This document shows positions 37,510 through 58,960 of a stretch of 64,000 nucleotides of DNA, in pieces. The notes beneath the pieces were generated by a model. It worked only from the letters and a program-made list of their open reading frames with translations. It made no database searches and had not been told where the DNA came from. Every line of letters starts with the position of its first letter. The stretch's first letter is position 1. The DNA is from an uncultured Methanosarcinales archaeon (lineage in GTDB: Archaea > Nanobdellota > Nanobdellia > Woesearchaeales > GW2011-AR4): assembly GCA_964585935.1 (NCBI GenBank), contig CAZPFO010000002.1, positions 7,465 to 71,464 on the forward strand. Direction: 5' to 3'. The translations under genes and the position numbers were made by a program.

Positions 37510-37875
37510 GATTATCAATAATAAAAATAATCAAGATTTAATAAAATTATTAGTAAGAATTAAACAATAAATAAAAATTATCAATAAGAAATTATCACTA
37601 ATAAAAATAATCAATAAAAAACAAACCAATGAGTGCACAAACAGTGATTCCTTGGTTGTGAGTGTTTATGTGCGGTCGTTTTTTTATTTTAAAATCCTAA
37701 AAAATCAAAGATTTTTGGGACACCAAAAATTCTGAAGGAATTTTTTAGTGTTTTAAAACAATTGAAAAAATAAATAAAAAACGCTGCTGGAAAACGAGCA
37801 AATAATTGTGAATGTGGAACATGAATAATGATTAAATATTTAAATGATAGAAATTGATTAAAATACTGATTAAAA
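37510..37875 (+). repeat. structured intergenic element copy 1 (subtype A; core 37625-37832)
   Basis: ACCAATGAGTGCACAAACA...GTTGTGAG...GGTCGTTTTTT [nested-hairpin insert] AAAAAACG...CAAATAATTGTG..TGTGGAACAT...AATGAT. Confidence 0.85.
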
Positions 37876-37887
37876 AAGAGGTACAAA

Positions 37888-38370
37888 ATGGGCAATAGAA
37901 AAGCTCAGGCAGCGCTGGAATTTCTTACTACATACGGCTGGGCAATTCTGGTTATATTGATTACGATAAGCGCGCTTTATTACTTCGGAATCTTTGATTT
38001 TACCAAATATCTTCCTCAGGAATGTAATTTCCCGCCGCAATTCAAGTGTATTGACTTTAGCATGATAGATGAAGGAGGAACTCAGGAGATAAGATTCCTG
38101 CTTTTGAATAATATTGGGGAGGAGGTTTATGTAGAGGGATTCGATATAACGAATAATGCAGATCCGCCTCTGGAATGTACAGGGCCAACAAACACTCCTG
38201 AGTGGGTGAGTGGTGAAGAGAAGGATTTTGTATTTACCAACTGCCAATATGGAGTGTTTATAGAGGGAGAAAGAATTGAAGCCAAAATAAATTTTACATA
38301 CTATGCTCCTCTTACGCCTTCTCAACCAAGACATACTGTAAGAGGAAAAATAACAGGCACAGTAGGATGA
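37888..38370 (+). CDS. type IV pilin
   Basis: KAQAALEFLTTYGWA. Confidence 0.92.
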   Translation: MGNRKAQAALEFLTTYGWAILVILITISALYYFGIFDFTKYLPQECNFPPQFKCIDFSMIDEGGTQEIRFLLLNNIGEEVYVEGFDITNNADPPLECTGPTNTPEWVSGEEKDFVFTNCQYGVFIEGERIEAKINFTYYAPLTPSQPRHTVRGKITGTVG

Positions 38371-38816
38371 AAGCACAATCTGCCTTGGAATATCTGATGG
38401 TCGTAGCACTGACGCTAATGATAATTGTACCTACAACTTACTTGTTTTATAGCTATTCAAAACAATCGACAGACCAGCTGATTTATCCCCAGATAAATGG
38501 TATAGGAAGAGAAATTATAAGCACTGCAGAATCGGTTTATTATTCTGGCGAGCATTCAAGAATTGTCATGGACATCAACATGCCTGAGAAAGTCAATGAT
38601 GTTTATATCCTTGACGAGAGGGAGCTTGTTTTTGAGATTGAGGGTGAATCAGGAAACAATGAAATGGTTTTTTTCTCAGATGTCAACATAACCTCTGATT
38701 CAGATTCGTGCACTACAGTAAAATGCTATGTAAATATATCGTCTTCTGGAATAAAAAAAGTAAAGATAGAGTCTATCAACCAAGGCAGAGAGGTTTTGAT
38801 TAATAAAACAGGATGA
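38367..38816 (+). CDS. type IV pilin-like protein
   Basis: MKAQSALEYL. Confidence 0.9.
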   Translation: MKAQSALEYLMVVALTLMIIVPTTYLFYSYSKQSTDQLIYPQINGIGREIISTAESVYYSGEHSRIVMDINMPEKVNDVYILDERELVFEIEGESGNNEMVFFSDVNITSDSDSCTTVKCYVNISSSGIKKVKIESINQGREVLINKTG

Positions 38817-39814
38817 TCAAACCATACAAAAAAGCCCAGTTTGGAATAGAATTCGTCATACTAATCACTTTTATGCTCATAGTATTTCTTGGGTTTTTTG
38901 GCATAATCACATACAAATTGGCTGATCTGGAAGAAGAGGGAAAGCAGCAGGCAGCAGCAAATATAGCTTTATTGGTGGATAATGAAGTAAAGCTGGCTAA
39001 ATCCTCTAATAATGGCTATGAAAGGGTTTTTGAAATTCCTAGTAAAATAGAAGGCAGTGATTATAACATAAGCATTATTGGTAATAGGGAGGTTGTTGTT
39101 GCTTACCCTGGGTATGAGCATATTTTGTTTCTGCCTCCGGGTGTTGAAGGAAATGTAAGCAGCGGCCTTAATAATATTACAAAAACAGAAGGCATTGTAT
39201 ATCTTCAGGGTATTACTCCGGAATGTAACAATGGAGAGGATGATGATGGCGATACTTACTTAGATTCGGCTGATCCAGGCTGTTATATTAATTGTGATTA
39301 TGTAGATGCTGGTAATTTTAGAAGGTATAGGCATGAAGCAGATAGCTGCAGTTGCAGCTCTGTAGGGCAGTGCTGCTCAGGCGCGGGCTTTGGATCTTAT
39401 TATGGCTATTTTGATGGTGATTGTGGCGGAGGCCAGTGCTGGTCAGCATGCTCTATTGGTGAAAATGTGTTGTTGATAATGAGGAACCTTATTTCAAATG
39501 TTATCAGGTTTGAAAATGATGGGGATGTTATATTGAAAGGGCAATTTCAGGATGATGATCCTAACCCTCCTGTTTCAGATGATGATGAATTCATATTTAA
39601 GGATAGAAATGGAATTACTGTTGCAGTGATCAATTTAGGGTCTGGAGATATGTTCATAAATGGAAGCAAATATGAAAACCAGCCAGCATTAACGCCTTCT
39701 CCAACAAGCAATGATTTCATTGTAAAAGACTCTAGTGGAGAGGTGATGTATTACATTGATGAGACTGGAAATCTTTATTTAAAAGGGACTTTAACAGACA
39801 ATGGAAATCCTTGA
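38813..39814 (+). CDS. pilin-like protein with Cys/Asp-rich motif and repeated C-terminal domain
   Basis: KKAQFGIEF; ECNNGEDDDGDTYLDSADPGC; two F.(F/V)KD..G repeats. Confidence 0.88.
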   Translation: MIKPYKKAQFGIEFVILITFMLIVFLGFFGIITYKLADLEEEGKQQAAANIALLVDNEVKLAKSSNNGYERVFEIPSKIEGSDYNISIIGNREVVVAYPGYEHILFLPPGVEGNVSSGLNNITKTEGIVYLQGITPECNNGEDDDGDTYLDSADPGCYINCDYVDAGNFRRYRHEADSCSCSSVGQCCSGAGFGSYYGYFDGDCGGGQCWSACSIGENVLLIMRNLISNVIRFENDGDVILKGQFQDDDPNPPVSDDDEFIFKDRNGITVAVINLGSGDMFINGSKYENQPALTPSPTSNDFIVKDSSGEVMYYIDETGNLYLKGTLTDNGNP

Positions 39815-39819
39815 ATAGA

Positions 39820-40160
39820 AAAATAAACAATTGAAAAAAAAGCCAATGATAAAAATCAATGAAAAATTCAATATTTAATAAAATTATCAATGAAAAAATA
39901 ACCAATAAGAAAAAAATTCAATAAAAAAATACCAATGAAAATTAAAAAAATAACCAAGGAGTGCACAAACACTGCTTCCTCAATGGTGAGCGTGTATCTG
40001 CAGTCATTTTTTAATTTTTGAAAATTTAAACAATTTAAAAATAAATAAAAAAACTCAGATGATGAAAGCGCAAACAATTGTGCATGTGGAACATAAATAA
40101 TGGCGGAAAATTTAAATGGTAAAAATTGATAATAAAAATTTAAAAAATTGATTAAAAAAT
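39820..40160 (+). repeat. structured intergenic element copy 2 (subtype A; core 39953-40104)
   Basis: ACCAAGGAGTGCACAAACACTGC...GCAGTCATTTTTT...AAAAAAACTCAGATGATGAAAGCGCAAACAATTGTGCATGTGGAACAT. Confidence 0.9.
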
Positions 40161-40187
40161 AATTTAAAATAAATATTGAGGTGAAAA

Positions 40188-41693
40188 ATGAATAAAACAA
40201 AAATAAAGAGAAGATATGGTAAAAAATGCATGGGTGTTTTAAATAAAAAAACTGCATTGAATTCTTTTTTTGCCTCATTTTTAAAGTTCAGCATAGCGGT
40301 AGCTCTGTTGTTTGTAATTGCCTTGTTTGTTACTGCAGGAGATGTTATAATCGAGAACGGCAAACTGAATGTAAACAACAGCTTTTATGTTGATGGTGAT
40401 GGGAATGTAGGGATTGGAACATCGCCGGGTTCAAAATTACATATAAGACAGAGTGTTGATAGTAATGTGGGTGGGTTTATGATACAAGATGTTGGTGGGG
40501 CTAATTTTAGGATTTGGAAAGATTCTGGAAACACTTATTTTTATAGAGGGCCAACACTTAATTTAATGACTTTTAATGATGCAACAGGTAATGTTGGCAT
40601 TGGGACGACGAGTCCTACTAAAAAATTACAGATTCAAGGCGGCAATGATAACGGTATTTTGATTACTGATGCAAGTGATAATAATAGGGTTATTTTAGCT
40701 CCTGATGGTGATGGTGATGGGGAAATTTCTTTGTATGATCAATCAACAGTATTAAAAGTATTAATTAGAGCTAGTGGAGATTCTTTTTTAGATGGGGGCA
40801 ACGTCGGAATTGGGACGGCGAGTCCTGGGGCACCCCTTCATATTAAAAGAGATAGTAGTTTGAGTGCCACGCAACATCTAATAATTTCAAATACAGATCC
40901 AACAAATGGCAATGCCGCATATATAAAGTTTCTTGGTTCAAGTGTGGTTAATTATGGTGATATAGGTACAGAATTTGTAGATCGCACAAGCGGTTCAGAG
41001 GACGGAAGTCTTATTTTTAGTACACGTGTTAATGGGGCGATGGCAGAGGGGATGCGAATTCATAACGGCAACGTCGGCATTGGGACGGCAAACCCTCAAG
41101 AAACGCTCCATGTTCGTGGCTGGATTATGACAGAGACAGCAGCCGCAAATCCGAGCGTGCATTTTAAAGACTCTACTTCTGGTCAAGTCTATACTCTACA
41201 GATAGACAGCAGCAACAATAATTTTCAGTTATATGACAATACTGCAGGCCAATCGCGTATTGTTGTAAAAACCGATGGCAATGTCGGCATCGGAACAACT
41301 AACCCAGATCATGACCTGGAGATTGGCACTGGAACCTATTCAGAGATTGACGCAGGTGAAGCACAATTCACCACAGGTTCGTCTAAAGAGTACAAAGAAA
41401 ACATTCGGCCGATAGCAGTACAAAAGATACTTGATAAAATCTCTACTATTCCTGTAACTACTTATGATTTCAGAGAAGAATATTGTGATAGTGCAGATGA
41501 TAAATGCAAAAATAAGCTGGGCCTGATAGCAGAAGATTTTCATGTGATCTTCAAAAGAGGTTCTGATAAGGAGATTAATGGACAAGAAGTGCAAATGGCT
41601 TTATGGCTTGCTGTTCAGGAGTTAACCAAAGAAAACCAACAACTAAAATCAATCATCTGCCTTGATTATAAAGATGCTGAGATTTGCACTTAA
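40188..41693 (+). CDS. tail-fibre-like adhesin with GNVGIGT repeats and C-terminal peptidase S74-like chaperone domain
   Basis: Five GNVGIGT repeats; SSKEYKENI...LGLIAEDF...AVQEL; N-terminal hydrophobic segment. Confidence 0.88.
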   Translation: MNKTKIKRRYGKKCMGVLNKKTALNSFFASFLKFSIAVALLFVIALFVTAGDVIIENGKLNVNNSFYVDGDGNVGIGTSPGSKLHIRQSVDSNVGGFMIQDVGGANFRIWKDSGNTYFYRGPTLNLMTFNDATGNVGIGTTSPTKKLQIQGGNDNGILITDASDNNRVILAPDGDGDGEISLYDQSTVLKVLIRASGDSFLDGGNVGIGTASPGAPLHIKRDSSLSATQHLIISNTDPTNGNAAYIKFLGSSVVNYGDIGTEFVDRTSGSEDGSLIFSTRVNGAMAEGMRIHNGNVGIGTANPQETLHVRGWIMTETAAANPSVHFKDSTSGQVYTLQIDSSNNNFQLYDNTAGQSRIVVKTDGNVGIGTTNPDHDLEIGTGTYSEIDAGEAQFTTGSSKEYKENIRPIAVQKILDKISTIPVTTYDFREEYCDSADDKCKNKLGLIAEDFHVIFKRGSDKEINGQEVQMALWLAVQELTKENQQLKSIICLDYKDAEICT

Positions 41694-41709
41694 ATTAAAG
41701 AAAATTCCA

Positions 41710-43617
41710 TCAAACATAAGGTATATCGTGGTGGAATTTAATTCCGTAAACATAAACATAATTCCAGAACAGGCCTTGTTTTCTTGTTACAAAAACACTG
41801 AAGCCGCATTCCCTGAATATCTTGGATATTTCCTGATCAGAGCTTAGCCATGCAACATTAGGTATTAGCTTGAAAAAGTCAACATAGTCGACAAAAACAA
41901 TTTTTCCTCCATAAGGCAGCAATTCCCTCATCTCTCTTAAAACTTTCTTAACATCCTGCAGATAGCCCATCATGCCCATGCTCACGATTGAGTCTACATG
42001 GGGGATGTCAGGATGGACTCTGTTAATCTGGTGCTTATCATGGATGATAATGACATGCATATGCCCTTCTTTGACGAGCCTTTTCTTTGCTATAATCAGG
42101 TCATTTTCTGACAAGTCAGTTGCATAAATCCTGCCTTGCGGCTTAACTTTTTCTGCAAGCTGGAGAGTTAAAGTGCCAACAGAACACCCAAACTCAAGGA
42201 TTGTTTTGTTTCTTACGTCCCCCAATAACTTAAGAATTTCGTCCCTTACCCCCTTTGGCAGGATCATTTTTTCTGTCAACAGCGTTAAATATGCCAGAGA
42301 ATTGTTTACTCTTACTATTGCATCAGGATTGTAATAGAGGACCAGCAAAAGGTAAATTGGTATGCCTACAAATATAAAAGATATCGCCAGCACCAGAATA
42401 TTAAATGCGCCCTCTACCTGAAGAAGCCACACTGCAACTAAAGAAAGCATAAACAAAGTGATAAGCAGGGAGCCGGCTTTTCCAAAAGGGGCTTTAAATG
42501 GCCTTATTATATGGGGTTTTTTTAACCTTAAAATCCAGACAGCCAAAATTGTAAATATATACATCACTATCCCTAATGGCAGCAGAAGGCTCAGCAAAGT
42601 TTTGTAATTTCCAAAAGCCATTGCAAAAACAATTAATGATACTATTGCCTGGAATATTATTGCCTTGTGAGGTGTATGGAATTTTGGATGTATGCTGCTT
42701 AGCTGCGCTATAAATAATTTGTCTCTTGATAAGGCAAGGATAAGCCTAGGCAAAGCAACTATACCTCCTGCTGCAGAGCCTACAAGGGCAAAGAAAACGC
42801 CAAAATTGATAATTTTAGTGGCTGCCTCGCCAAAGATAACGCCAAAAACAGAGGACAAAGGAGTGTTTAATCCTATTAAAATACTCCAGGGTATTATCCC
42901 TAGTGAGACTATGACTATTGAAATCCCTAAGATGCCTGTTAAAATGGTTCCAAGAACCAAAGCAAGGGGTATAGTCTTTTCAGGATTCTTGATCTCTTCA
43001 GCAAGATATGTAGCTGATTCCCAGCCGAAAAAACTTTCTGCAATAAAAAATATTGTAACAAAGACAGGCAAATAACCATGAGTAAAAAACGGCGTTAGAT
43101 TGCTAATATCCATGTAAAAGACTCCTGGCAGAATAATCGATAATAAGATAGTTATTGATACTCCTGCAAGCAACACTAGAATAAATCCGCTGGCTTCTAT
43201 TCCGACGTAGGCTACAAAGTTTAATGCCAAAATAAGCAATATGCTTATCCCAATTTTCAATAATATCTGGGAGGGGTCTGGAATCAAATAATTAACAGCA
43301 GCTACAACAAGCAATGCCACTGTCAAATTCCCCACTAACCACGCAACCCAGCCAACCATAAATGAAGTAAACCTTGAATATGTTTGTTTGCTGTATTCAT
43401 AGACGCCGCCTGCACTTGGAAACATAGACACTAACTCGCCAAAAAACGTGCTTATGTAAACAGCAAAAACTGTTAATATGACCCAGGAGAGTATTGAAGA
43501 ATTGCCGGAATAAGAAGCGCCTATAGCAGAGCCAAAAAACATGCCAGTACCCATTATAGTGGCGACTGCCAAAGCCAATACAGTCCAAAATCCCAGAACC
43601 CTCTTTAACTCAGCCAT
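41710..43617 (-). CDS. APC-family amino acid permease fused to class I SAM-methyltransferase-like domain
   Basis: LKRVLG..IMGTGMF, AGGVY, FFGWE..AEE; C-terminal ILEFGCSVG...YATD...LPYGGKIVFVD. Confidence 0.9.
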   Translation of the reverse strand: MAELKRVLGFWTVLALAVATIMGTGMFFGSAIGASYSGNSSILSWVILTVFAVYISTFFGELVSMFPSAGGVYEYSKQTYSRFTSFMVGWVAWLVGNLTVALLVVAAVNYLIPDPSQILLKIGISILLILALNFVAYVGIEASGFILVLLAGVSITILLSIILPGVFYMDISNLTPFFTHGYLPVFVTIFFIAESFFGWESATYLAEEIKNPEKTIPLALVLGTILTGILGISIVIVSLGIIPWSILIGLNTPLSSVFGVIFGEAATKIINFGVFFALVGSAAGGIVALPRLILALSRDKLFIAQLSSIHPKFHTPHKAIIFQAIVSLIVFAMAFGNYKTLLSLLLPLGIVMYIFTILAVWILRLKKPHIIRPFKAPFGKAGSLLITLFMLSLVAVWLLQVEGAFNILVLAISFIFVGIPIYLLLVLYYNPDAIVRVNNSLAYLTLLTEKMILPKGVRDEILKLLGDVRNKTILEFGCSVGTLTLQLAEKVKPQGRIYATDLSENDLIIAKKRLVKEGHMHVIIIHDKHQINRVHPDIPHVDSIVSMGMMGYLQDVKKVLREMRELLPYGGKIVFVDYVDFFKLIPNVAWLSSDQEISKIFRECGFSVFVTRKQGLFWNYVYVYGIKFHHDIPYV

Positions 43618-43769
43618 TATTTAAAAAATTGGAACTGTAGTATAAAAATAATTGTTTGTACTGCGGTGTGGTGAAAGAGTTTTTAATCAAATTATCAAGT
43701 AGGCCAACAAACACTGCTGACCTTATAAAATCAATAAGATTAAAAATAAAACAGAATAACTAACAGTAT

Positions 43770-44426
43770 ATGAAAACATTATTTATTGAATCAAAATATA
43801 TGGGAAACGCAGAATTGGATAAAATCAAAGCAGAAAAGCTGCCAAAAAACATAGGATTAGTTGCTACAATACAATTTACAGGCCAGTTAGATAAAATAAA
43901 AGATTATCTGGCTGATAAAAACAAAAAAGTATATGTTGCAAAAGGCAACCAGAAATATCCTGGACAGATTCTTGGATGCGATGCATCTTCTGGTGAAAAG
44001 ATAAAGAGCAAGGTTGATGCTTTTCTTTATATCGGAGACGGGAGGTTCCATCCTTTAGGCTTAGCGATGAGCACAAATAAAGAGGTTTTCTGTTTTAATC
44101 CTGCTAATGGTTATTTTTCTGAAATTGATAATAAAGAAATTGAGGAGTATAAAAAATCATTAAAAGTAAAAAAAATAAGATTCTTGAGCGCGGAAAATGT
44201 AGGCATTTTGGTTTCGACAAAACCAGGCCAAAATAATTCCAAAAAAGCGTCTGAAATAAAAAAGAAACTTGAAAAAGAAGGCAAAAAGTGCTATACTTTT
44301 GTGTTTGATACATTAAGCTTAAATGAGCTGGAAAACTTCCCATTTGTAGACTTCTGGGTCAATACAGCGTGCCCGAGGATAGAAGGAGATAGTAAGGAGG
44401 TTGTTAATGTAAGGGATGTTGAATAA
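43770..44426 (+). CDS. dph2: diphthamide synthesis Dph1/Dph2-family protein (short form)
   Basis: ATIQF, GQILGC, GDGRFH, STKPGQ, NTACPRI. Confidence 0.9.
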   Translation: MKTLFIESKYMGNAELDKIKAEKLPKNIGLVATIQFTGQLDKIKDYLADKNKKVYVAKGNQKYPGQILGCDASSGEKIKSKVDAFLYIGDGRFHPLGLAMSTNKEVFCFNPANGYFSEIDNKEIEEYKKSLKVKKIRFLSAENVGILVSTKPGQNNSKKASEIKKKLEKEGKKCYTFVFDTLSLNELENFPFVDFWVNTACPRIEGDSKEVVNVRDVE

Positions 44427-44555
44427 AAAATAAATAAGATGAATTCGTTATAAATTAATTAAACTATTATCAATAAAAAAGAAATCAATAAATAAAGTTA
44501 CCAATAAAAAACCAAAAAGAAAAAAATCAATAAAATAATAAAAAATTAATTAAAA

Positions 44556-45395
44556 TTACTTATTTTTTCCTTTTGCCGTTTCCTTGATCCACACATCCCT
44601 TTGAGGGAAAGGTATTGTAATTCCGTTCTTGTCAAACTCTTCTTTTATTTTCTTGATTGTGTCAAAGTAAACTCCCCAATAATCCTCTTTTTTTATAGAA
44701 GGCCTTACAGCGATGTTGACAGAACTATCTCCCAAGCTTTTGACAACTATCTGATGCTCAGGGTCTTTTAAAACACGCTTGTCTTTTTTCAGGATATTGT
44801 CTATGATTCTTATTGCCTTGTCTATATTTGAGTCGTAGCTGATGCCAATTTCAAGGTTATAAAGCTTCCTTGTAGAGTTTCCATGGAAATTTTGTATTAC
44901 ACCCCCCCATATCTTGCTGTTAGGGATGGTTATTTTTACATTATCCGGGCTTTTTAGTACGCAGGCCGCTATTCCAATGTGCTCTACACCCCCTACAACT
45001 CCCCCTACTTTTATCCAGTCATGCACCCTGAATGGCCTATGGAAAAGGATGAAGACTCCGGATGCTAAATTGCCTAAAGTGTCTTTCAAGGCAAAGCCAA
45101 CTATGAAGCCCATTATCCCCAGGCCTGCAATAAGGCCGGAGACATTAATGCCTAAATTGCTGAGGATGATTATGAGGAGTATGAACCATAAAATCACTTT
45201 TAATGCATTTTCTATAAATGTTTCTACAGACCTTTCAAAATCAACTTTGTCAAAGAACTTCTCTATTAATTTAACAAGAATTTTCACTACTATATAGCCT
45301 ATAACCACAATTACAATTGTGCCTATTATTTTAGGCGTATAAGCATTCAAGGAAGTTATCCAATCCTGCATTACCTTGTTTATATCTATCGCCAT
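44556..45395 (-). CDS. mscS: small-conductance mechanosensitive channel
   Basis: GFALKDTLGNLASG...RPFRV.D, IPN, IPFPQRDV. Confidence 0.95.
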   Translation of the reverse strand: MAIDINKVMQDWITSLNAYTPKIIGTIVIVVIGYIVVKILVKLIEKFFDKVDFERSVETFIENALKVILWFILLIIILSNLGINVSGLIAGLGIMGFIVGFALKDTLGNLASGVFILFHRPFRVHDWIKVGGVVGGVEHIGIAACVLKSPDNVKITIPNSKIWGGVIQNFHGNSTRKLYNLEIGISYDSNIDKAIRIIDNILKKDKRVLKDPEHQIVVKSLGDSSVNIAVRPSIKKEDYWGVYFDTIKKIKEEFDKNGITIPFPQRDVWIKETAKGKNK

Positions 45396-45514
45396 CTTTT
45401 TTAATAAATGATAATATTCTTTTATTTAAAGGTTTCTATTAGGAAAAAGATAAAGTTAGTTTAATGATTTAAATTCGGAACAACAATTGCTGTTGCCTAT
45501 CAGAAATTATAATC

Positions 45515-46384: not shown

Positions 46385-46394
46385 CTCAACCTCT

Positions 46395-46735
46395 TTATCA
46401 AATTTTTAATCAATTTTTAAATTTTTATTTATCAATCAATCATTATTTTTTAATCATTTTTAAAACAAAATAGGAAATTTTCTTGATTCTCAACGAGATT
46501 GAAAATTTCGTCTTCTTCTGCTCCTTTCACCAATGGTGTAAAGGAACCCAATCAGTTGATTTTCACCATTACGTTAAGTATAAAGTGAAAATCCTATTTA
46601 TTTTTTGTTGTAAACGTTATAGTTAACTAAGGTCAATGCAAAATTATTTACAACTAGTTGTGCAGTGTTTGTGTACTCATTGGTTATTTTTTTAATTTAT
46701 TTTAACATTGATTGATTTTTTATTGATTTTATTGT
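46395..46735 (-). repeat. structured intergenic element copy 5 (subtype B; core 46453-46684)
   Basis: Minus strand ACCAATGAGTACACAAACACTGCACAACTAGTTGT... plus multi-stem domain shared with copy 6. Confidence 0.85.
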
Positions 46736-49419: not shown

Positions 49420-49491
49420 ACAACTGCCTATTTTTTAAACAGAAAAGTTTAAAAGTGATTTATTATTGATTTTTTATAATAAAGGATTAAA

Positions 49492-49740: not shown

Positions 49741-49826
49741 TAATTTTATAAAATATTATTAAATTCCGATACATTTAAATATAACCTATACATTAACAAA
49801 AACATAAGAGTTCTTAAGGATTAAAG

Positions 49827-50465: not shown

Positions 50466-50479
50466 AAAAGTTGTTCTAA

Positions 50480-50700
50480 AAATCAATAAAAAATTATCAA
50501 TAGTATAATTTATCATTAGGTGCACAAACACTGCACAATAAGTTGTGAGCGTGTATGTGCAGTCATTTTTTTATTTTAAATATTTAATAACAAATAAAAA
50601 AACTCAGATAATGAAAGCACAAATAATTGTGACTGTAGAACATAAACAATGATTAGAAATTCAAATGATAAATTAAAATAATAAAATTGATTAATAAATT
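50480..50700 (+). repeat. structured intergenic element copy 3 (subtype A; core 50512-50653)
   Basis: ATCATTAGGTGCACAAACACTGCACA...TGTGCAGTCATTTTTTT...AAAAAAACTCAGATAATGAAAGCACAAATAATTGTG...AATGAT. Confidence 0.9.
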
Positions 50701-50720
50701 AAATTCTAAATTAAAGTAAA

Positions 50721-52613: not shown

Positions 52614-52651
52614 TCAAAATCTTTTTATTCTATTTAATCAAAAATACTTAA

Positions 52652-53377
52652 ATGGCCGGTAAAAAGAGTGTGAAATTTTTTTCTTCAAAAGAAGAAAGGA
52701 GAACTGCATTACAGGTTCTGGTTTTAATTGCTGCATTTTTTGCTTTATTGGCTATATTGAGTTATCCTCTTCTGCCTTTATTCAAAGATGCAGTCAGATT
52801 GAGAGCTATAGTACAGGGCTTTGGCTTTTTTGGGCCTGCTTTCTTTATTTTACTGCAGGTCTTGCAGGTGTTAATAGCGCCAGTCCCTGGGCAGGCAGCT
52901 GGCTTTGTCAGCGGCTACATATTCGGGGTTTTCCCGGGAACTGTTTATACCATGATTGGCACCACCATTGGATCATATATCGCCTTTATTTTGGCAAGAA
53001 AATTTGGAAGGCCGTTTGTTGAAAAAGCCATCAGCAAGAGTTTATTGAAAAAATTTGACTATGTATCAAAAAGCAAAGGCGTATTTGCGCTTTTTTTGAT
53101 ATTTCTACTTCCAGCACTGCCTGATGATGCGATTTGTTTTATAGCCGGCTTGACAAAAATAAGGATAAGGGTTCTGGTTTTGATTGCTTTCCTTGGAAGG
53201 CTGCCTGGATTTTTTATATTGAATCTAGTTGGCAATGGGATGGCGCTTTCGCAATGGGAAACATCAGTTATAATATTCAGTTTGATGATTTTTGTTTCTT
53301 TGATTATATTTTTGTTCAGGAAACAGTTAGAAGATCATACAAATAATATTATTAAAAATAATTTTAAGGGAAAATAA
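52652..53377 (+). other. VTT/DedA (TVP38) family membrane protein
   Basis: QVLIAPVPGQ...F.LAR.FGR...LPALPDD. Confidence 0.92.
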
Positions 53378-53667
53378 AAAAATCAATCAATGTTAAAATA
53401 ATCAATAAAAAAAGAAATCAGGATAATCAATAAAAAACAAAAAAATTAACCAATGGGTGCACAAACACTGCTTCACTAGTTGTGAGCGCGGATATGCAGT
53501 CGTTTTTTGATTTAATTTTTTTAAAACAAATAAAAATCGATAAAAAACGCAGATGATGAAAGCGCAAATAATTGTGCGTGTGGAACATTACCATTGATTG
53601 GATAATTATTGATAAAAAATCTAATTTTATCCAAATATTTAAATAAAAATCCTGTTTCTGCTTTTTC
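53378..53667 (+). repeat. structured intergenic element copy 4 (subtype A; core 53449-53598)
   Basis: ACCAATGGGTGCACAAACACTGC...GCAGTCGTTTTTT...AAAAAACGCAGATGATGAAAGCGCAAATAATTGTGCGTGTGGAACATTACCATTG. Confidence 0.9.
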
Positions 53668-54561
53668 ATGGAAGAAGAAGTCAAAAATAAGTATATCAAA
53701 GCAGGGAAGATAGCTGCCCAGGTTTTAGAGTACGGCAAGGGGTTGATTAAAAAAGGCAATTCTTTATTGGATGTTGCTGAGAAAACTGAAAATAAGATAT
53801 TTGAGTTAGGGGCAAAGCCTGCTTTTCCTGTCCAGATGTCCATGAATCATGTTGCTGCCCATTCCTGCCCTGAAGAGGATGATAAGACTATGTTTGATGA
53901 GCAGGTTGTTTGCCTGGATGTAGGGGTTCATATTGGCGGTTATATAGGAGATAATGCATGCACAGTTGACTTATCAGGAAATTATGGGGATTTAGTTAAA
54001 GCGTCAGGAGAAGCGTTAGATGAGGCAATTAAGGTTGTCAAGGAGGGAATTACTTTGGGGGAGATAGGCAGGGCCATACATGACACTATTGTAAAATACG
54101 GCTTCAGCCCTGTGAGGAATTTATCAGGGCATGGCTTAGATGAATTCAAGCAGCATACAAAGCCTTCTATACCTAATTTTGATACCCAGGATAAGACTAA
54201 AATTGAGAAAGGGATGGTATTTGCGATTGAGCCTTTTGCTTCCACAGGCTCTGGAATTGTGCAAGACTCAGGCACGGGGAGTGTTTATGCTCTTGTGAAT
54301 ATGAAGCCTGTAAGAAGCCAAATAACAAGGGATGTTTTAAAGGAAATTAATGGTTATGATGGATTGCCGTTTGCAAAAAGGTGGCTGACAAAAAAGTTTG
54401 GTGTTAAGGCAAATTTTGCATTAAGGGAATTGCTGCAGAGAAATATCATCAGGGATTACAAGCCTTTGGCAGACAGCGCAAAAGGGATTGTTTCACAGGC
54501 TGAACATTCTCTGATGATTGATGATGATGGAAAAGTTATAATAACAACAAAACCAGATTAA
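53668..54561 (+). CDS. map: type II methionine aminopeptidase
   Basis: PAFP, AAH, DVGVH..GYIGD, LSGH, AIEPF, QAEH. Confidence 0.97.
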   Translation: MEEEVKNKYIKAGKIAAQVLEYGKGLIKKGNSLLDVAEKTENKIFELGAKPAFPVQMSMNHVAAHSCPEEDDKTMFDEQVVCLDVGVHIGGYIGDNACTVDLSGNYGDLVKASGEALDEAIKVVKEGITLGEIGRAIHDTIVKYGFSPVRNLSGHGLDEFKQHTKPSIPNFDTQDKTKIEKGMVFAIEPFASTGSGIVQDSGTGSVYALVNMKPVRSQITRDVLKEINGYDGLPFAKRWLTKKFGVKANFALRELLQRNIIRDYKPLADSAKGIVSQAEHSLMIDDDGKVIITTKPD

Positions 54562-54592
54562 TTTTTAAATAAAAAATAATGCTTGATTAAAA

Positions 54593-54904
54593 ATGACAGA
54601 AAAAATATATGAAACCGCATCACAGTTATTTGAAATATTAGTAAAATCAAAAGATAGGGTTAATTTATCAGTAAATGAACGCAATTTTTTACTGAAGTCT
54701 ATTTACGGATTAAATGATTGTATAAAAAGCTCAGAACTGATTGATGTGTCTAGGATTGAAACAATAATAGGATTAATTAAAAATGGATCTTCTTCGCATA
54801 TGGGTGATGTAAAATACACCAATAGTGAAAAACAGAGTTACTATCGGCAATTATATAATGCATGTTGCGTTGTTCAAGAAAGTATTGATAATCAAAGGAC
54901 CTAA
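54593..54904 (+). CDS. hypothetical protein
   Basis: 103-aa ORF; no motif recognised. Confidence 0.55.
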   Translation: MTEKIYETASQLFEILVKSKDRVNLSVNERNFLLKSIYGLNDCIKSSELIDVSRIETIIGLIKNGSSSHMGDVKYTNSEKQSYYRQLYNACCVVQESIDNQRT

Positions 54905-56172
54905 GGAATATTCTCTTTAATCTCAGCAGCAGTTAAAAGCTTTTCTTCTCCTGTTTTCATATTTTTCAATTTAACTTTGCCTTGTTTTAATTCCTCTTCA
55001 CCTATAAACAGAACGTAAGGAATGTTCAGGGAATTAGCATACTTTAAATTCTTGCTTGGGCCCTTGCCAGCCAGGTCAATATCAACATTAACGCCTTCTC
55101 TTCTCAGCTCTTCTGCTATCTTCATGCTTTCATCGAATGTGTTTATGGGTATGATATAAACCTGAGTTACTGTTTTTTTCTCTTCCTTGTTTTTTTCAAG
55201 ATAAGCATCATAAATCCTGTCCAGACCAAACGAAATTCCAACAGCAGGATAATCTCCCCTGCCTAAAAAGTCGCCAATCATCTTATCATATCTACCGCCT
55301 GCACAGACTGCGCTTTTTACTTTGGAGTTTTTCAGGAAGACTTCAATTACTGTTTCTGTATAATAACTTAATCCTCTTGCAAGAGAAGCATCAAATTCAA
55401 CATCAATATTTAACGATTTAAGAGAATTTAATAACCGCTCTATTTCATCTAAACTCTCAGAGTTTTTTATTATTTTTTTTAATTTTTTAATTTTTTCGTT
55501 ATTGGAACCTTTTATACTGATTGTTTTTAATATTTGATTGGTTGTTTTTTCATTGATCTTTTTCTCTTTTAATTCTTTTTTAACTGATTCTAAACCAAAT
55601 TTTTCGAGTTTGTCTATTGATAGAATTGTCTCTTCGATTTTGCTCTTATCAACTTTACAGTATTTCAAGATGTCATTCAATAATTTCCTGTTGTTGATCT
55701 TGATGGTGAAATCAAAACTCAGTTTTTTGAATACTAAATCTGTTAAGGACACTAGCTCAGCTTCTGCTGTCATTTCCTTACACCCTATAATGTCTACATC
55801 GCATTGAGTAAATTGTCTGTATCTTGCAGATTCAACTGGACCATCACGGAAAACTTTCCCAATTTGGTATCTTTTAAAGGGCAATTTTAAATTTGGATTA
55901 GAACCAACAAATCTTGCTAAGGGTACTGTTAAGTCATACCTTAAACCAAGATCCCTATTTCCCTGATCTTTAAGCTTGAATGTTTCTTTAAGAATTTCTG
56001 CTCCTCCGGCATACTTTGAAGCTAAGATATCATACCTTTCAGAGGTAGGGGTTTCCAAAGGAGGGTAGCCGTAAAGCTCAAAAGTGCTTTTTAGAGTATC
56101 AACTATCTTATTCCTCATTATCATCTCCTCGGGATTGAAATCCCGCGTTCCTTTTGGTAATTGGAGTTTCAT
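54901..56172 (-). CDS. hisS: histidine--tRNA ligase
   Basis: PKGTRD, LRYDLTVP, RYRQFTQCD, LARGLSYY, GGRYD. Confidence 0.98.
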   Translation of the reverse strand: MKLQLPKGTRDFNPEEMIMRNKIVDTLKSTFELYGYPPLETPTSERYDILASKYAGGAEILKETFKLKDQGNRDLGLRYDLTVPLARFVGSNPNLKLPFKRYQIGKVFRDGPVESARYRQFTQCDVDIIGCKEMTAEAELVSLTDLVFKKLSFDFTIKINNRKLLNDILKYCKVDKSKIEETILSIDKLEKFGLESVKKELKEKKINEKTTNQILKTISIKGSNNEKIKKLKKIIKNSESLDEIERLLNSLKSLNIDVEFDASLARGLSYYTETVIEVFLKNSKVKSAVCAGGRYDKMIGDFLGRGDYPAVGISFGLDRIYDAYLEKNKEEKKTVTQVYIIPINTFDESMKIAEELRREGVNVDIDLAGKGPSKNLKYANSLNIPYVLFIGEEELKQGKVKLKNMKTGEEKLLTAAEIKENIP

Positions 56173-56243
56173 TTTAACATTCTCTTATTTAGCTGGTTTA
56201 TAAAATTTGTGATGATTATACTCCTCTAAGCATCAATATAGAA

Positions 56244-57239
56244 CTATTTTATTATTTGGGAAGGATCTAATCTCACAATATCATCTGCGCCATGTCTTTT
56301 AAGTCCATAAGCTATATTCAACCATTTTGATTTTAGAATTTCAATACCTATTTGCAAATAGTTTCCTTCGTTAGCTGTGATAGTTGGTTCTTTTGTATAT
56401 AATTTTTCTCTTCTTAAATATTTCAACATCTGCTCTTTTTTCTTGTTAGGTATATTAAAAACAATATAATCAGTTTTTCTTGCTTTTACAACACCATCAA
56501 GCATTGTTTTTATAAAATCAATTTTTTTATTTTTCCAAGGATCTCTTAAAGCCTCTTCTGTGGTATAAAGTACTGCACTTGATTCTATTAAAGTATCAAT
56601 TGCTTTTAAGTTATTCTCATCTAAGGTTTTACCAGAAGATGAGCATTCTACAATAAAATCCGCTGATTGTTTGGGATTAACAGCTGATTCTGTAGCACCA
56701 TAAGAATCATTTATTATTAATCTTGTATTTTTACCTATTTTTCCAAATTTGGATACGATCATTGGTTTTCCTTGATTGAATAGTTCTCGATATTTCTTAT
56801 TTTTATAGATTTTATCTTGAGTTATAAAAGGGTATTCTGTATCACATCTCACAATATTTTTTTTTGATACTCTTTTAAGATATGAATTTAAATTTCTGAC
56901 ATTTAAGGTATCTGGTACTGCTACTACCAGATTTGCATATCCATATTCTAAATCAGATATCTTATCCAGTCCAAACCCTGCTAATCTCCACTCTTCTGCT
57001 ATATCCTGCCCTAATATAGCTAAATCAAAAACTCCATCTCGCAGTTCTCTAGGCATATTTTGGGGCCTGTCAACAATTACTTCTAATTCTGGATCATTTT
57101 TTATTTCGGGGGAATAAGATCTAGAAGAAGGGGAATAACCTCTAATATCAAAGCCTGCTTGTTTTAATAAAGCTTCAGTACTCCATCTATCTTTATCATT
57201 TAAGCTTCCTTTTGGTAATGCAAATCTAAGTTTCCCCAT
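56244..57239 (-). CDS. hisG: ATP phosphoribosyltransferase (long, divergent)
   Basis: ALPKGSL, DLAILGQD..EE, YGATE, SSGKTL..NNL, C-terminal regulatory domain. Confidence 0.85.
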   Translation of the reverse strand: MGKLRFALPKGSLNDKDRWSTEALLKQAGFDIRGYSPSSRSYSPEIKNDPELEVIVDRPQNMPRELRDGVFDLAILGQDIAEEWRLAGFGLDKISDLEYGYANLVVAVPDTLNVRNLNSYLKRVSKKNIVRCDTEYPFITQDKIYKNKKYRELFNQGKPMIVSKFGKIGKNTRLIINDSYGATESAVNPKQSADFIVECSSSGKTLDENNLKAIDTLIESSAVLYTTEEALRDPWKNKKIDFIKTMLDGVVKARKTDYIVFNIPNKKKEQMLKYLRREKLYTKEPTITANEGNYLQIGIEILKSKWLNIAYGLKRHGADDIVRLDPSQIIK

Positions 57240-57305
57240 TTCACTAATCTTAATTTGTTCCTATTTATAAATCTTTTGGTTTTGTAACCACTAATAAGTA
57301 AAGAA

Positions 57306-58016
57306 TTAGAATAATTCTGCCAAATCACTAAAATCCCCAATCTTCAAGTCTCCGTTCATCTTATAGCCTATGAAGAACATACCTGCGTTTTTTGCTGCTC
57401 CTTTGTCGTTTATTGTGTCTCCGACCAAGACTGCTTCCCGGGGCTCTATATTTAATCTTTTGCACGCCTCTAATAAAGAATCAGGCTGCGGTTTTCCTTG
57501 ATCTACTTCATTTCCTCCAATAATAGCGTTAAATAAGCTTTTTATCTTATGGTGCTCTAATATTTCGGATGTTGGTTTTTTGTAGCTGTTTGTCACTATG
57601 CCCAGTTTAATATTTTTCTTTTTTAACTTTTCCAGTGTTTCTTTAACATCCGGGTTTAATTTTGTATCTGCCTTAAACTTGCCCATGTTTGAATAGTAAT
57701 GTTTGCTTATTTCTTCTACTGTTTTTCCTTTAAAGTACTGCATGGCATCCTTTTTTATTGAGCCGCCCCATACTTTTTCCATGAATTCTTTTTTTGTTAT
57801 TTTTTGGAGCTTATAGTGCTGCCTTGTATTATTAAAAACATTTAACCATGCATCCAATGAATCAATTATAACCCCGTCTAAATCAAAGATGACTGCCTTT
57901 AATTTATTGGGCTTATGATGCCTCATCATTTTATTATAAGTCCACTGGCCTACGACTACCCAGTAAATTGCCAGGATTGCAGTTATTGACAAAACAAAAA
58001 GCAGAATATCATTCAT
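57306..58016 (-). CDS. HAD-family phosphatase with N-terminal hydrophobic helix
   Basis: IFDLDGVIID, GKPQPD, VGD..ND. Confidence 0.9.
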   Translation of the reverse strand: MNDILLFVLSITAILAIYWVVVGQWTYNKMMRHHKPNKLKAVIFDLDGVIIDSLDAWLNVFNNTRQHYKLQKITKKEFMEKVWGGSIKKDAMQYFKGKTVEEISKHYYSNMGKFKADTKLNPDVKETLEKLKKKNIKLGIVTNSYKKPTSEILEHHKIKSLFNAIIGGNEVDQGKPQPDSLLEACKRLNIEPREAVLVGDTINDKGAAKNAGMFFIGYKMNGDLKIGDFSDLAELF

Positions 58017-58609
58017 TTTTTACCTTTATAACGCCCTCTTTTTTCCACTTTCTCCAGTCTTTTTATTATTTCTTCTGAATTTGATGCTTTCTTTTTATAG
58101 CTTTGAAGGATATTTCTAAAAGAGTTCTCCCAGATTTTATAATGCTTGCTTTCCAGAGCTTCCTTTAATAGATGAAGATCAACTGCTTTGTCTTCTGTTT
58201 TATGGGAAAATGAGCTTAAGCCAAAATCAATAAAATAAATTTCTTTGTTCAATATCATATTTGAAGTCGTCAGGTCCCCATGAATGATGTTGTTGTTATG
58301 CAGGAGAGCAATCTTTTCTCCGATCTCTTTTGATAGGTTTTCAAGGTCTTTTTCCAATATATCTTTTATCAGCGGTCCGGGAATGTTCTCCATGGTTATT
58401 TTTTCTTTTTTGTCTGTTTTGATCAGTTCCGGGGAGGGGAAATTGATCAATGATAATTTTTCAAGTATTTTTGATTCCCGTTTTGTTCTTGATTTTCTCA
58501 GTCTTTCATCTATTTCTTTAATCCTGTATTTTTTTGGGAAACGGTCTTTGACTATTTCGTTATCTTTCAGAAATAATTTAGATTCTGCTCCTTGCGCTAT
58601 TAGTTTCAT
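58013..58609 (-). CDS. bud32: KEOPS complex kinase Bud32
   Basis: QGAE, RTKRE, HGDLTTSN, IDFGL, DKAVDL, RGRY. Confidence 0.97.
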   Translation of the reverse strand: MKLIAQGAESKLFLKDNEIVKDRFPKKYRIKEIDERLRKSRTKRESKILEKLSLINFPSPELIKTDKKEKITMENIPGPLIKDILEKDLENLSKEIGEKIALLHNNNIIHGDLTTSNMILNKEIYFIDFGLSSFSHKTEDKAVDLHLLKEALESKHYKIWENSFRNILQSYKKKASNSEEIIKRLEKVEKRGRYKGKK

Positions 58610-58611
58610 TT

Positions 58612-58955
58612 TTTATCATTAATTTTTGATCATTAGGGAATATTACACCCTCACAATTATTTGTGTATTTTCTTGTTAATTTTCTAAATTATATTATTTG
58701 TTTTGAAAATTTAAAATAAAAAGGAAAATTCCTTGTTTCCACACGTTATAGGAATTTTCAACTTCTTCTGTTGCATTAAAGTTCACATAAAACAATATCA
58801 CTGGCTGATTTTCGTAATTAGCTATGAAATAAAACGAAAATCCTATTTAATTTTTGTTGAATACCTGATAGTTAGCTTAAGGCAATACAAAACTAATTAC
58901 AACTAATTGTGTACTGTTTGTGCACCTAATGGTTTAATTTACTGATTAATTGAAT
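58612..58955 (-). repeat. structured intergenic element copy 6 (subtype B; core 58629-58933)
   Basis: Minus strand ACCATTAGGTGCACAAACAGTACACAATTAGTTGT...multi-stem domain...CACAAATAATTGTG...CCTAATGAT. Confidence 0.85.
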
Positions 58956-58960
58956 TTTAA

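What the first reader, a model, noticed from the sequence alone, without database searches (positions are those of the whole stretch)
37510..58955. Six-copy family of sense-oriented, structured intergenic elements: candidate undescribed repeated RNA
Seen: cores at 37625-37832(+), 39953-40104(+), 50512-50653(+), 53449-53598(+), 46453-46684(-) and 58629-58933(-). All begin A(C/T)CA(A/T)(T/G)RRGT(G/A)CACAAACA(C/G)T and align without gaps over the first ~35 nt (about 55 nt among the four subtype A copies). Five end with a CAAA(T/C)AATTGTG hairpin motif. Predicted stems change in a compensatory way. The closing stem is CAATGG/CCATTG in copy 4, ATCATT/AATGAT in copy 3 and CATTAGG/CCTAATG in copy 6. 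An inner stem is ACTGC/GCAGT in subtype A and CAGTACA/TGTATTG in copy 6. A T-run/A-run stem has a variable-length loop, which in copy 1 holds extra nested hairpins. Every copy lies between two co-directional genes and points the same way as they do. No conserved ORF, transposase or target duplication is visible. Inference: the element acts as RNA within polycistronic transcripts, for example as a processing or stability element, ribozyme, or non-autonomous mobile RNA. I do not recognise it as a named family.
Basis: partly seen in the sequence, partly recalled or inferred. Interest (0 to 1): 0.92.

Follow-up and report, generated by a model that had tools for sequence, protein, structure and literature searches.

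The report
Mosaic intergenic repeat family, archaeal genome
The six look-alike stretches belong to a family of about fifty short repeats scattered between the genes of a small archaeal genome; they behave more like copied and homogenised DNA than like one conserved RNA, but two of them carry a nested 145-base module whose fold is supported by compensatory changes.

Summary
The six copies are at the stated coordinates (0 expected by chance). They belong to about 49 loci in this 1.16-Mb genome, and diverged relatives occur in 3 of 40 related genomes searched.

Polarity is striking. In co-directional gene gaps, 31 copies are sense and 0 antisense.

The RNA reading is only partly supported. They show no covariation above shuffled controls.

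TATA-like boxes peak about 30 nt before start codons. This places the repeat core upstream of the likely promoter of the next gene.

Between two species of one genus, some sites are shared and most are not. Copies resemble paralogues in their own genome more than copies at the same site in the other species. Identical blocks and a strain-level patch point to gene conversion or copying.

My best reading is a non-autonomous, mosaic intergenic repeat, like MITE, BIME or REPIN elements. Its hairpin, T-run and A-run centre probably acts as a terminator or insulator.

Copies 5 and 6 carry a nested 145-nt module with a four-way-junction fold. That fold is supported by covariation (0 of 500 shuffles reach it) and has no Rfam match. 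It is the real candidate for a new structured RNA.

The parts
37620..37833 (+). Copy 1, subtype A. 5' module about 37620-37690, then a T-run. A nested hairpin module of about 65 nt lies at about 37693-37757. 3' module 37775-37833.
   Evidence: contig C2:45084-45297. The nested module recurs in C19, C23 and C7, and in genomes G001 and G002. An element lies at the orthologous site in G001.
39948..40105 (+). Copy 2, subtype A: 5' module, T-run, AT-rich spacer, A-run, 3' module.
   Evidence: C2:47412-47569. It is a row of alignment A2.
50507..50654 (+). Copy 3, subtype A. It lies between a proteasome subunit gene and the FttA/aCPSF1 gene.
   Evidence: The orthologous G001 site keeps a 3' module and the T/A centre, but its 5' module is degenerate.
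53444..53600 (+). Copy 4, subtype A, upstream of a methionine aminopeptidase gene.
   Evidence: No element at the G001 orthologous site.
46621..46689 (-). Copy 5, 5' module only (subtype B, no 3' module).
   Evidence: C2:54085-54153. It lies upstream of a ribose-phosphate pyrophosphokinase gene. G001 has a subtype A-like element before the orthologous gene.
46457..46622 (-). Copy 5, nested B-core: a four-way junction with closing stem AUAGG/CCUAU and three hairpins.
   Evidence: Model R2 scores 167.3 bits. Covariation.
58871..58935 (-). Copy 6, 5' module (subtype B).
   Evidence: C2:66335-66399.
58707..58871 (-). Copy 6, nested B-core.
   Evidence: Model R2 scores 146.7 bits.. No Rfam match at E<=10.
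58629..58665 (-). Copy 6, 3' module (CACAAATAATTGTG hairpin ... CCCTAATGAT), upstream of a RIO-type kinase gene.
   Evidence: No element at the G001 orthologous site.
37510..37619 (+). Example of a flanking array of ATCAAT + A-run motifs upstream of a copy. Matching AWTGAT + A-run motifs follow each copy.
   Evidence: Read. These motifs are 5- to 20-fold enriched in gaps that hold an element, compared with other upstream regions. In one identical pair the downstream motifs lie inside the copied block.

Best explanation
The copies belong to a lineage-restricted family of mosaic, non-coding, non-autonomous intergenic repeats. The family behaves like bacterial MITE, BIME or REPIN elements and acts mainly at the DNA level.

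Anatomy of one unit:
- A conserved 5' module of about 65 nt (ACCAWT..GTGCACAAACA..TTGTGAGCGTG..GCAGTCG) that runs into a T-run.
- An AT-rich spacer that accepts other small inserts.
- An A-run.
- A conserved 3' module of about 60 nt with a CACAA-N4-TTGTG hairpin, ending in AWTGAT.
- A tail of AWTGAT + A-run motifs.

Shown:
- About 49 loci in this genome.
- Strict polarity in co-directional gene gaps.
- Gain and loss of copies between two species of one genus.
- Concerted evolution within each genome.
- Identical blocks and a strain-level patch, which indicate gene conversion or copying.
- No covariation in the subtype A stems.

Inferred:
- The family spreads and is homogenised by recombination, and possibly by a single-strand (HUH/Y1) transposase acting in trans next to polar CAAT-type motifs. 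That would explain the polarity without any RNA function.
- The hairpin, oligo-T and oligo-A centre works as an archaeal terminator or insulator between the upstream gene and the -30 TATA box of the next, mostly leaderless, gene.

A separate 145-nt module (B-core) is nested in about 12 copies, including window copies 5 and 6. It folds as a four-way junction supported by covariation. It is the one part that may act as RNA.
For: Copy number and spread:
- 6 of 6 window copies.
- 40 motif matches in the genome against 0 for the reversed control.
- 49 loci.
- Sequence-only model R1 matched in 4 of 41 genomes: G000, G001 (34 matches), G002 (7) and G025 (32). The other 37 had none.

Polarity:
- In G000 the downstream gene is on the same strand for 42 of 47 callable loci. 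In co-directional gaps the count is 31 sense to 0 antisense.
- In G001, 17 of 18.

No RNA-type covariation in subtype A:
- The top mutual-information pairs are adjacent block variants.
- 490 of 500 shuffles reach the observed covariation score.

Position relative to promoters:
- In 439 element-free genes, TATA-like hexamers total 0.70 per gene at -35 to -26. A Shine-Dalgarno-like motif is present in about 22%.

Turnover between species:
- 16 G001 elements have a G000 orthologue of the downstream gene. 4 of these 16 have an element in G000 as well. The background is 42 of 1184 genes.
- Window copies 1, 3 and 5 are shared in position with G001. Copies 4 and 6 are not.

Concerted evolution:
- Identity is 0.764 within G000, 0.665 within G001 and 0.569 between them.
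- Four orthologous pairs are 0.54-0.66 identical and rank 2, 14, 10 and 4 of 18.
- All 18 G001 copies form one clade (support 1.0).

Copying and conversion:
- A 167-nt block is 100% identical between C13:6603 and C20:27266. It starts 61 nt upstream of the element and ends inside it.
- A block of about 217 nt is identical between C19 and a metagenome contig with unrelated flanks.
- 10 of 10 differences over 3.2 kb between a metagenome contig and C19 fall in 67 nt inside the element.

Other points:
- Edges of pairwise similarity are ragged.
- A T6+ run is present in 77% of element-bearing co-directional gaps and an A6+ run in 100%. In the other gaps the figures are 27% and 38%.
- Y1 transposase genes are present. 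No IS110, DDE_Tnp_1 or reverse transcriptase was found.

B-core:
- On 10 copies, 92.4% of cells are paired and 20 cells show compensatory change. The score is 0.213 against 0.134+-0.015, reached by 0 of 500 shuffles.
- On 25 copies, 12 pairs and 55 cells are compensatory. The score is 0.229 against 0.117+-0.009, reached by 0 of 500 shuffles (this alignment includes the unpublished genome G155).
Against: - No clean ends or target-site duplication were found.
- Terminal inverted complementarity is short. The closing stem is 74.6% paired. The score for the 5' end against the reverse complement of the 3' end is 4.3, against 5.2 for the direct comparison and 2.7 for shuffles.
- No autonomous partner is known. 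The Y1 transposase genes of this genome end in different, GC-rich hairpins.
- Y1 genes occur in all 4 genomes that hold the element, but also in 16 of 37 that do not.
- Polarity follows local transcription direction, not one replication direction. This is not the known behaviour of IS200/IS605 elements (recalled).
- Conserved G.U pairs in the 3' hairpin (18 of 21 copies) favour folding of the sense strand, so an RNA role is not excluded.
- Retention at some orthologous sites in a compact genome may mean selection for a function I have not identified.
- No copy pair inside G000 exceeds 92% identity over more than 75 nt, apart from the 167-nt block. Recent transposition inside this genome is therefore not shown.
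- Gene calls are my own crude ORF calls.
- The terminator role is inferred only. No transcript data exist.
Confidence: 0.5

Rival explanations
1. The whole element is a cis-acting structured RNA, transcribed in sense within polycistronic or leader transcripts. It would work as a processing, stability or terminator-protecting element, or as a ribozyme.
For: - Polarity of 31 to 0 in co-directional gaps, and 17 of 18 in G001.
- Hairpins keep G.U pairs on the sense strand.
- B-core covariation and greater sense-strand stability in 9 of 9 copies.
- Some sites are retained between species.
- No known Rfam family.
Against: - Subtype A stems show no covariation above shuffles. The consensus fold is weak. 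Fold z-scores are equal on both strands.
- The core lies upstream of the -30 TATA peak of mostly leaderless genes.
- 7 copies lie in divergent gaps and 5 called copies in convergent gaps.
- In G002, 4 of 4 copies are antisense. In G155, 5 of 13 B-cores oppose the downstream gene (G155 is unpublished).
- The family is found in only 4 of 41 relatives.
Confidence: 0.2
2. The element is an IS200/IS605-type non-autonomous element (PATE), or a REP/REPIN-like partner of a Y1 (HUH) transposase. It would be moved as single-stranded DNA. Hairpins on the same strand at both ends would be the recognition sites, and a CAAT-type motif the target.
For: - Both ends carry a near-identical CACAA-N4-TTGTG hairpin followed by similar bases on the same strand. 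The direct end-to-end score of 5.2 is at least as high as the inverted score of 4.3.
- The start (ATAAACCAATGA) and the end (ATAAACAATGA) look like direct repeats of a CAAT motif (by eye).
- No target duplication was seen.
- Y1 transposases are the only transposase family found. All 4 element-bearing genomes have one.
- An identical block with sharp ends starts at CAATGAG.
Against: - The genome's own Y1 genes carry different GC-rich hairpins.
- 16 of 37 genomes without the element also have Y1 genes.
- Polarity follows transcription, not replication.
- The local 5' hairpin exists only in the ACAA variant, 11 of 27 copies.
- The ends of similarity are mostly ragged.
Confidence: 0.2
3. The modules and the ATCAAT/AWTGAT arrays are DNA binding sites for a lineage-specific protein (transcription factor, chromatin or boundary protein). 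They would co-evolve with that protein, which would give species-specific consensus sequences.
For: - The consensus is species-specific at shared positions.
- The location is upstream of core promoters.
- Short motif arrays are 5- to 20-fold enriched.
- The downstream genes are functionally diverse.
Against: - About 150 nt of conserved sequence is long for binding sites.
- Conversion tracts and identical blocks explain the homogeneity without a protein factor.
- Copies occur in convergent gaps.
- No candidate protein is known.
Confidence: 0.1

Closest known systems
REP/BIME and REPIN-RAYT systems of bacteria
   Same: - Short extragenic repeats, tens to hundreds of copies.
- Conserved palindrome-bearing ends around a variable spacer.
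- Mosaic composition.
- Species-specific consensus with long vertical persistence.
- Proposed roles in termination and in protecting mRNA 3' ends.
- A Y1 transposase family is present in the genome.

   Basis: passages of bioRxiv 10.1101/2021.07.10.451892 read, abstracts listed, otherwise recalled.
   Different: - The host is archaeal.
- The unit is about 155 nt and AT-rich, not GC-rich.
- The two palindromes sit in the same orientation rather than clearly inverted.
- No GTAG/CGTC tag.
- No flanked single-copy RAYT was identified.
- Polarity relative to genes is strict.
[quoted passage not shown]
IS200/IS605-derived non-autonomous elements (PATEs)
   Same: - Subterminal hairpins on one strand at both ends.
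- No evident target duplication.
- Oriented insertion.
- Y1 transposases in the genome, and a clear PATE of another type is inserted in two copies.
   Different: - No cognate transposase with matching hairpins.
- Orientation follows transcription, not replication.
- Long conserved modules extend beyond the hairpins.
Bacterial MITEs with transcript-level effects (Correia, ERIC, RUP, BOX; recalled)
   Same: - Intergenic location, 100-200 nt, hairpin-forming.
- Able to carry terminator or promoter signals.
- Sub-families and nested inserts.
   Different: - Terminal inverted repeats here are only about 6-12 nt and imperfect.
- No target duplication.
- Strictly polar.
- A 2024 census (PMC11602168, passages read) reports high MITE density in a Woesearchaea genome. 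It does not describe this family in the passages I saw, and I could not see its supplements.

Membership tests
Any Rfam family | A match to a curated covariance model | tested here: not met
   0 matches at gathering score on the window. None at the elements at E<=1 in five loci or at E<=10 around copy 6.
Structured RNA (subtype A element) | Base pairs kept through compensatory change more often than chance | tested here: not met
   score 0.076 against 0.088+-0.007, and 490 of 500 shuffles score at least as high; the top covarying columns are adjacent block variants.
Structured RNA or single-strand fold (B-core module) | Base pairs kept through compensatory change more often than chance | tested here: met
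   (10 copies, MAFFT alignment): 0 of 500 shuffles reach the score, and 9 pairs have changes on both sides. (25 copies, includes unpublished G155): 12 pairs, 55 cells, 0 of 500. Whether RNA or DNA forms the fold was not tested.
MITE | Terminal inverted repeats | tested here: inconclusive
   The 6-bp terminal complementarity is 74.6% paired. The inverted end-to-end score of 4.3 is no better than the direct score of 5.2; shuffles give 2.7. The complementarity is clearer by eye in copy 6 and in G025 and G001.
MITE | Target-site duplication and sharp ends | tested here: inconclusive
   Edges of similarity are ragged in 449 left and 452 right pairwise comparisons. One pair has sharp ends but no clear duplication.
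MITE | A related autonomous insertion sequence with the same ends | tested here: not met
   No IS110 or DDE_Tnp_1. The Y1 genes have other hairpins. The genome is 85% complete, so absence is not shown.
IS200/IS605 PATE | Similar subterminal hairpins on the same strand at both ends | tested here: met
   The 3' hairpin is 97.1% paired in 21 of 21 copies. The local 5' hairpin CACAA-TTAG-TTGTG is present in the ACAA variant, 11 of 27 copies. An alternative 5' pairing is 85.7% paired.
IS200/IS605 PATE | A cognate Y1 transposase whose own ends carry the same hairpins | tested here: not met
   two intact Y1 genes, followed by GC-rich hairpins plus TTGTTTAC.
REPIN-RAYT | Two REP palindromes in inverted orientation, plus a single-copy RAYT flanked by REPs | tested here: inconclusive
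   Two palindromes of about 14 nt are present. Their orientation is ambiguous because they are near-palindromic, and the bases after them repeat directly. No Y1 gene flanked by the element was found.

The most novel reading that the evidence does not exclude
An archaeal counterpart of the REPIN-RAYT kind of long-lived, vertically kept repeat population. It would be polar with respect to transcription and homogenised within each genome. Into it has nested a separate mobile 145-nt RNA with a conserved four-way junction (B-core). The B-core could be a new self-processing or guide-type RNA.
Probability: 0.15. Interest if true: 0.8.

Novelty: new variant of a known kind. Interest (0 to 1): 0.55.

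Why it matters
Small, reduced archaeal genomes are thought to carry little repeated DNA. Here about 50 polar repeats occupy the largest intergenic gaps of a 1.16-Mb genome.

- If the hairpin, T-run and A-run centre is a terminator or insulator, this family shows how transcription units are separated in a genome of mostly leaderless genes.
- The species-specific consensus at shared sites gives a natural system for studying concerted evolution of dispersed repeats in archaea. The preprint passages I read say that REPIN-like systems have not been found in archaea.
- The B-core is a compact motif supported by covariation, with no Rfam family, seen in only 3 of about 300 genomes searched. It is a concrete candidate for bench tests of a new structured RNA.

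Tried and rejected
- Rfam: nothing at gathering score or at permissive thresholds.
- ARAGORN: no tRNA in the window.
- C/D box, H/ACA, hammerhead, hairpin ribozyme, group II intron and bulge-helix-bulge readings were considered by eye and dropped. The defining motifs are absent or present in only some copies.
- RNA evidence: no RNA holder was listed for the window stretch.
- My first genome contigs pattern was too loose.
- Viral contigs: 0 matches for the 5' module pattern. 13 matches for a B-core hairpin pattern, none confirmed by model R2.
- Metagenome contigs: 29 matches. About 16 are the same or a near-identical organism and 13 are chance matches in a coding repeat.
- Long-range pairing between the 5' and 3' modules: rejected, because the block variants assort independently.
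- Long terminal inverted repeats of about 36 nt: not supported numerically.
- Retro-mobility: no RVT_1 match.
- Y1 transposase presence does not separate genomes with the element from those without.
- A B-core search in a second sample of 150 genomes found it only in G000.
- Literature: searches listed no description of this family. Supplements were closed, so MITE catalogues could still hold it.

Full report
**1. What is there**

None is expected in 100 dinucleotide shuffles. I read all six copies and aligned them.

- Four copies (1-4) are a form of about 155 nt, called subtype A. Copy 1 holds an extra insert.
- Copies 5 and 6 share a longer form, subtype B.
- Five copies end with the CAAAYAATTGTG motif. 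Copy 5 does not.
- Rfam gives nothing at gathering score on the window. It gives nothing at the copies with permissive thresholds.

The genome is archaeal by its genes. The copies precede an FttA/aCPSF1 gene, a methionine aminopeptidase, a ribose-phosphate pyrophosphokinase, a RIO-type kinase, a 501-aa protein and a 160-aa protein with no Pfam match. A proteasome subunit and a VTT-domain protein lie upstream of two of them.

**2. The family is genome-wide**

- The motif has 40 matches at up to 2 mismatches in the 1,158,295-base, 32-contig, 85%-complete genome. The reversed pattern has 0.
- Profiles of the 5' and 3' modules give 49 loci: 35 with both modules, 6 with the 5' module only, 8 with the 3' module only. 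Some of the partial loci lie at contig ends.

**3. Anatomy**

- A 5' module, ACCAWT..GTGCACAAACA..(TTCC or ACAA)..TTGTGAGCGTG..GCAGTCG, runs into a T-run.
- An AT-rich spacer and an A-run follow.
- A 3' module comes next, with CTCAGATGATGAAAGCGC or a CTGGAACAGGTGC variant, the CACAA-N4-TTGTG hairpin, GTGGAACAT and AWTGAT.
- Upstream lie arrays of ATCAAT + A-run motifs. Downstream lie arrays of AWTGAT + A-run motifs.
- These motifs are 5- to 20-fold enriched in gaps that hold an element. For example, TCAATAAAA occurs 2.74 times per kb there against 0.32 per kb elsewhere.
- The spacer accepts other small inserts:
  - a hairpin module of about 65 nt, in window copy 1, three other G000 copies, G001 and G002;
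  - an IS200-type hairpin element of about 160 nt, in two copies;
  - the B-core.

**4. Polarity**

I made my own crude ORF calls: 1184 ORFs covering 88% of the genome.

- The downstream gene is on the element's strand at 42 of 47 callable loci. The upstream gene is on that strand at 37 of 45.
- In co-directional gaps, 31 copies are sense and 0 are antisense.
- 7 copies lie in divergent gaps and 5 in convergent gaps.
- Of those 5, I judge two to be ORF miscalls: window copy 1, and a copy before a small zinc-ribbon ORF. Two look truly convergent and one is unclear. These judgements are by eye.
- Across gap types the elements are spread roughly as large gaps are: 171 co-directional, 83 divergent and 45 convergent gaps of at least 150 nt.
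- In G001 (same genus), 17 of 18 elements have the downstream gene on their strand.
- In G002 (another genus), 4 of 4 are antisense to both neighbours.

**5. Test of the RNA-structure claim for subtype A**

- RNAalifold on 27 copies gives a weak consensus of -2.5 kcal/mol. Single-sequence folds disagree with each other.
- Mutual information with average-product correction ranks adjacent columns first. These are block variants such as TTCC against ACAA. No long-range canonical pair stands out.
  - 85.1% of cells pair.
  - The covariation score is 0.076 against 0.088+-0.007 in shuffles. 490 of 500 shuffles score at least as high.
  - The one variable closing-stem pair reads UA 5, AU 4, unpaired 12.
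- Fold z-scores are -1.56 on the sense strand and -1.77 on the antisense strand. The sense strand is the more stable in 17 of 27 copies.
- One point in favour of sense-strand folding remains. The 3' hairpin keeps a G.U pair in 18 of 21 copies.

**6. The B-core**

Copies 5 and 6 share a module of about 145 nt running from AAATAGG to CCTATTT. The genome holds about 12 copies, some without the 5' or 3' modules.

- On a MAFFT alignment of 9 G000 copies and 1 G025 copy, RNAalifold predicts a closing stem, three hairpins and a short middle stem. 9 of the 37 pairs show changes on both sides.
- Pair counts on that alignment: 92.4% paired and 20 compensatory cells, against 8.3+-2.2 in shuffles. The score is 0.213 against 0.134+-0.015, reached by 0 of 500 shuffles. 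Slid controls reach at most 0.082.
- By my count, G.U cells number 27 and A.C cells 9.
- The sense strand is the more stable in 9 of 9 copies, at -32.5 against -27.4 kcal/mol.
- With 25 copies from three genomes: 94.7% paired, 12 pairs and 55 cells compensatory, score 0.229 against 0.117+-0.009, reached by 0 of 500 shuffles. This larger test rests partly on G155, an unpublished genome.
- The covariance model R2 finds the B-core in 3 of 151 genomes sampled from the order: G000, G025 and G155. In a second sample of 151 it finds it only in G000.
- In G155, 8 of 13 copies point with the downstream gene and 5 against it.

**7. Position relative to promoters**

- In 439 element-free genes with an upstream gap of at least 70 nt, TATA-like hexamers peak at -35 to -26 from the ATG. 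The two bins hold 0.29 and 0.41 per gene, against a background of about 0.1.
- A Shine-Dalgarno-like motif is present in about 22% of these genes. This suggests mostly leaderless mRNAs.
- The 33 element-bearing genes show a similar enrichment at -40 to -26.
- The 3' module ends 20-160 nt before the ATG. In most loci the core therefore lies upstream of the likely promoter, not inside the downstream mRNA.
- A T6+ run is present in 77% of element-bearing co-directional gaps and an A6+ run in 100%. In other gaps the figures are 27% and 38%.

**8. Evolution**

- Relatives. The sequence-only model R1 hits G001 (34 matches), G002 (7) and G025 (32). The other 37 of 41 genomes searched have none. Each genome has its own consensus.
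- Shared and unshared sites.
  - 16 G001 elements have a G000 orthologue of the downstream gene. 4 of these 16 also have an element in G000, against a background of 42 of 1184 genes.
  - By reading, the S19e, pilin-like and FttA sites are shared too.
  - Of the six window copies, three are shared in position with G001 (1, 3, 5), two are absent there (4, 6) and one is undetermined (2).
- Concerted evolution.
  - Identity is 0.764 within G000, 0.665 within G001 and 0.569 between them.
  - Four orthologous pairs are only 0.54-0.66 identical and rank 2, 14, 10 and 4 of 18.
  - All 18 G001 copies form one clade with support 1.0.
- Signs of conversion or copying.
  - A 167-nt block is 100% identical between two loci. 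It starts 61 nt upstream of the element and ends inside it.
  - A block of about 217 nt is identical between the C19 copy and a metagenome contig with unrelated flanks. It starts at CAATGAG and includes about 70 nt of the downstream motif tail.
  - Another metagenome contig matches 3.2 kb of C19 with 10 differences. All 10 fall in 67 nt inside the element.
- Edges of similarity between copies are otherwise ragged. No pair inside G000 is above 92% identical over more than 75 nt.

**9. Who moves it?**

- The genome has three Y1_Tnp matches. Two are intact genes. It also has three tyrosine recombinases.
- No IS110, DDE_Tnp_1 or RVT_1 match was found. The TnpB-type zinc-ribbon family gave only a sub-threshold match.
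- The Y1 genes end in GC-rich hairpins that differ from those of the element.
- Y1 genes occur in all 4 element-bearing genomes, and also in 16 of 37 genomes without the element.
- A partner is therefore not identified.

**10. Reading**

The data fit a mosaic, non-autonomous intergenic repeat that is copied and homogenised at the DNA level. It resembles the BIME/REPIN and MITE families of bacteria.

I infer, without transcript data, two further points.

- The hairpin, oligo-T and oligo-A centre terminates or insulates transcription between units.
- Polarity comes from oriented insertion or recombination next to polar CAAT-type, A-rich motifs, or from selection on read-through RNA.

The B-core is a separate nested module with a real conserved fold. 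Whether RNA or single-stranded DNA forms that fold is open.

**11. Literature**

- Four searches listed no description of this family.
- In PMC11602168 I read passages only. The paper reports a high MITE density in a Woesearchaea genome. Its supplements, which could list such elements, were closed.
- In bioRxiv 10.1101/2021.07.10.451892 I read passages only. REPINs are described there as two REP palindromes of about 14 bp around a variable spacer. They are said to be duplicated by single-copy RAYTs and vertically inherited, and not detected in archaea.

Noticed in passing
window 58960-59100 (-): By eye this is a tRNA gene with at least two introns. The acceptor stem is AGCCCTG/CAGGGCT and the GGTTCGAA T-loop is interrupted. 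ARAGORN and Rfam both miss it. It lies 25 nt upstream of copy 6 on the same strand.
   Followed up: partly
G000 C13:29165-29524 (-) and C13:11222-11587 (+) (loci L031, L032): Two intact IS200-like Y1 transposase genes. Each is followed by a GC-rich hairpin and TTGTTTAC. An ORF-less derivative of about 160 nt with similar hairpins is inserted in the spacer of elements C22:17031-17339 and C17:31624. It also lies at C6:20021-20175 and twice in C16.
   Followed up: partly
G000 C16:25334-25486, C12:29470-29625, C5:18905-19057, C11:4335-4487, C6:14422-14574, C32:3071-3223: Another repeat of about 153 nt, 96-98% identical between copies, seen through a metagenome contig. I did not characterise it.
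   Followed up: no
whole genome G000: TATA-like hexamers peak sharply at -35 to -26 from start codons. Only about 22% of genes have a Shine-Dalgarno-like motif. This suggests mostly leaderless mRNAs.
   Followed up: partly
window 37693-37757 (+); also C19:28416-28627, C23:25341-25552, C7:12978-13190, and G002:C37: A nested hairpin module of about 65 nt (..AAAAATCAAAGATTTTTGGGACACCAAAAATTC..GGAATTTTTTAGTGTTTT) is inserted in the spacer of several copies. It is conserved across genera.
   Followed up: partly
G000 C6:40136-40345 (-) and downstream: A subtype B copy without a 3' module is followed, about 60 nt downstream on the same strand, by what looks by eye like another intron-bearing tRNA gene.
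   Followed up: no
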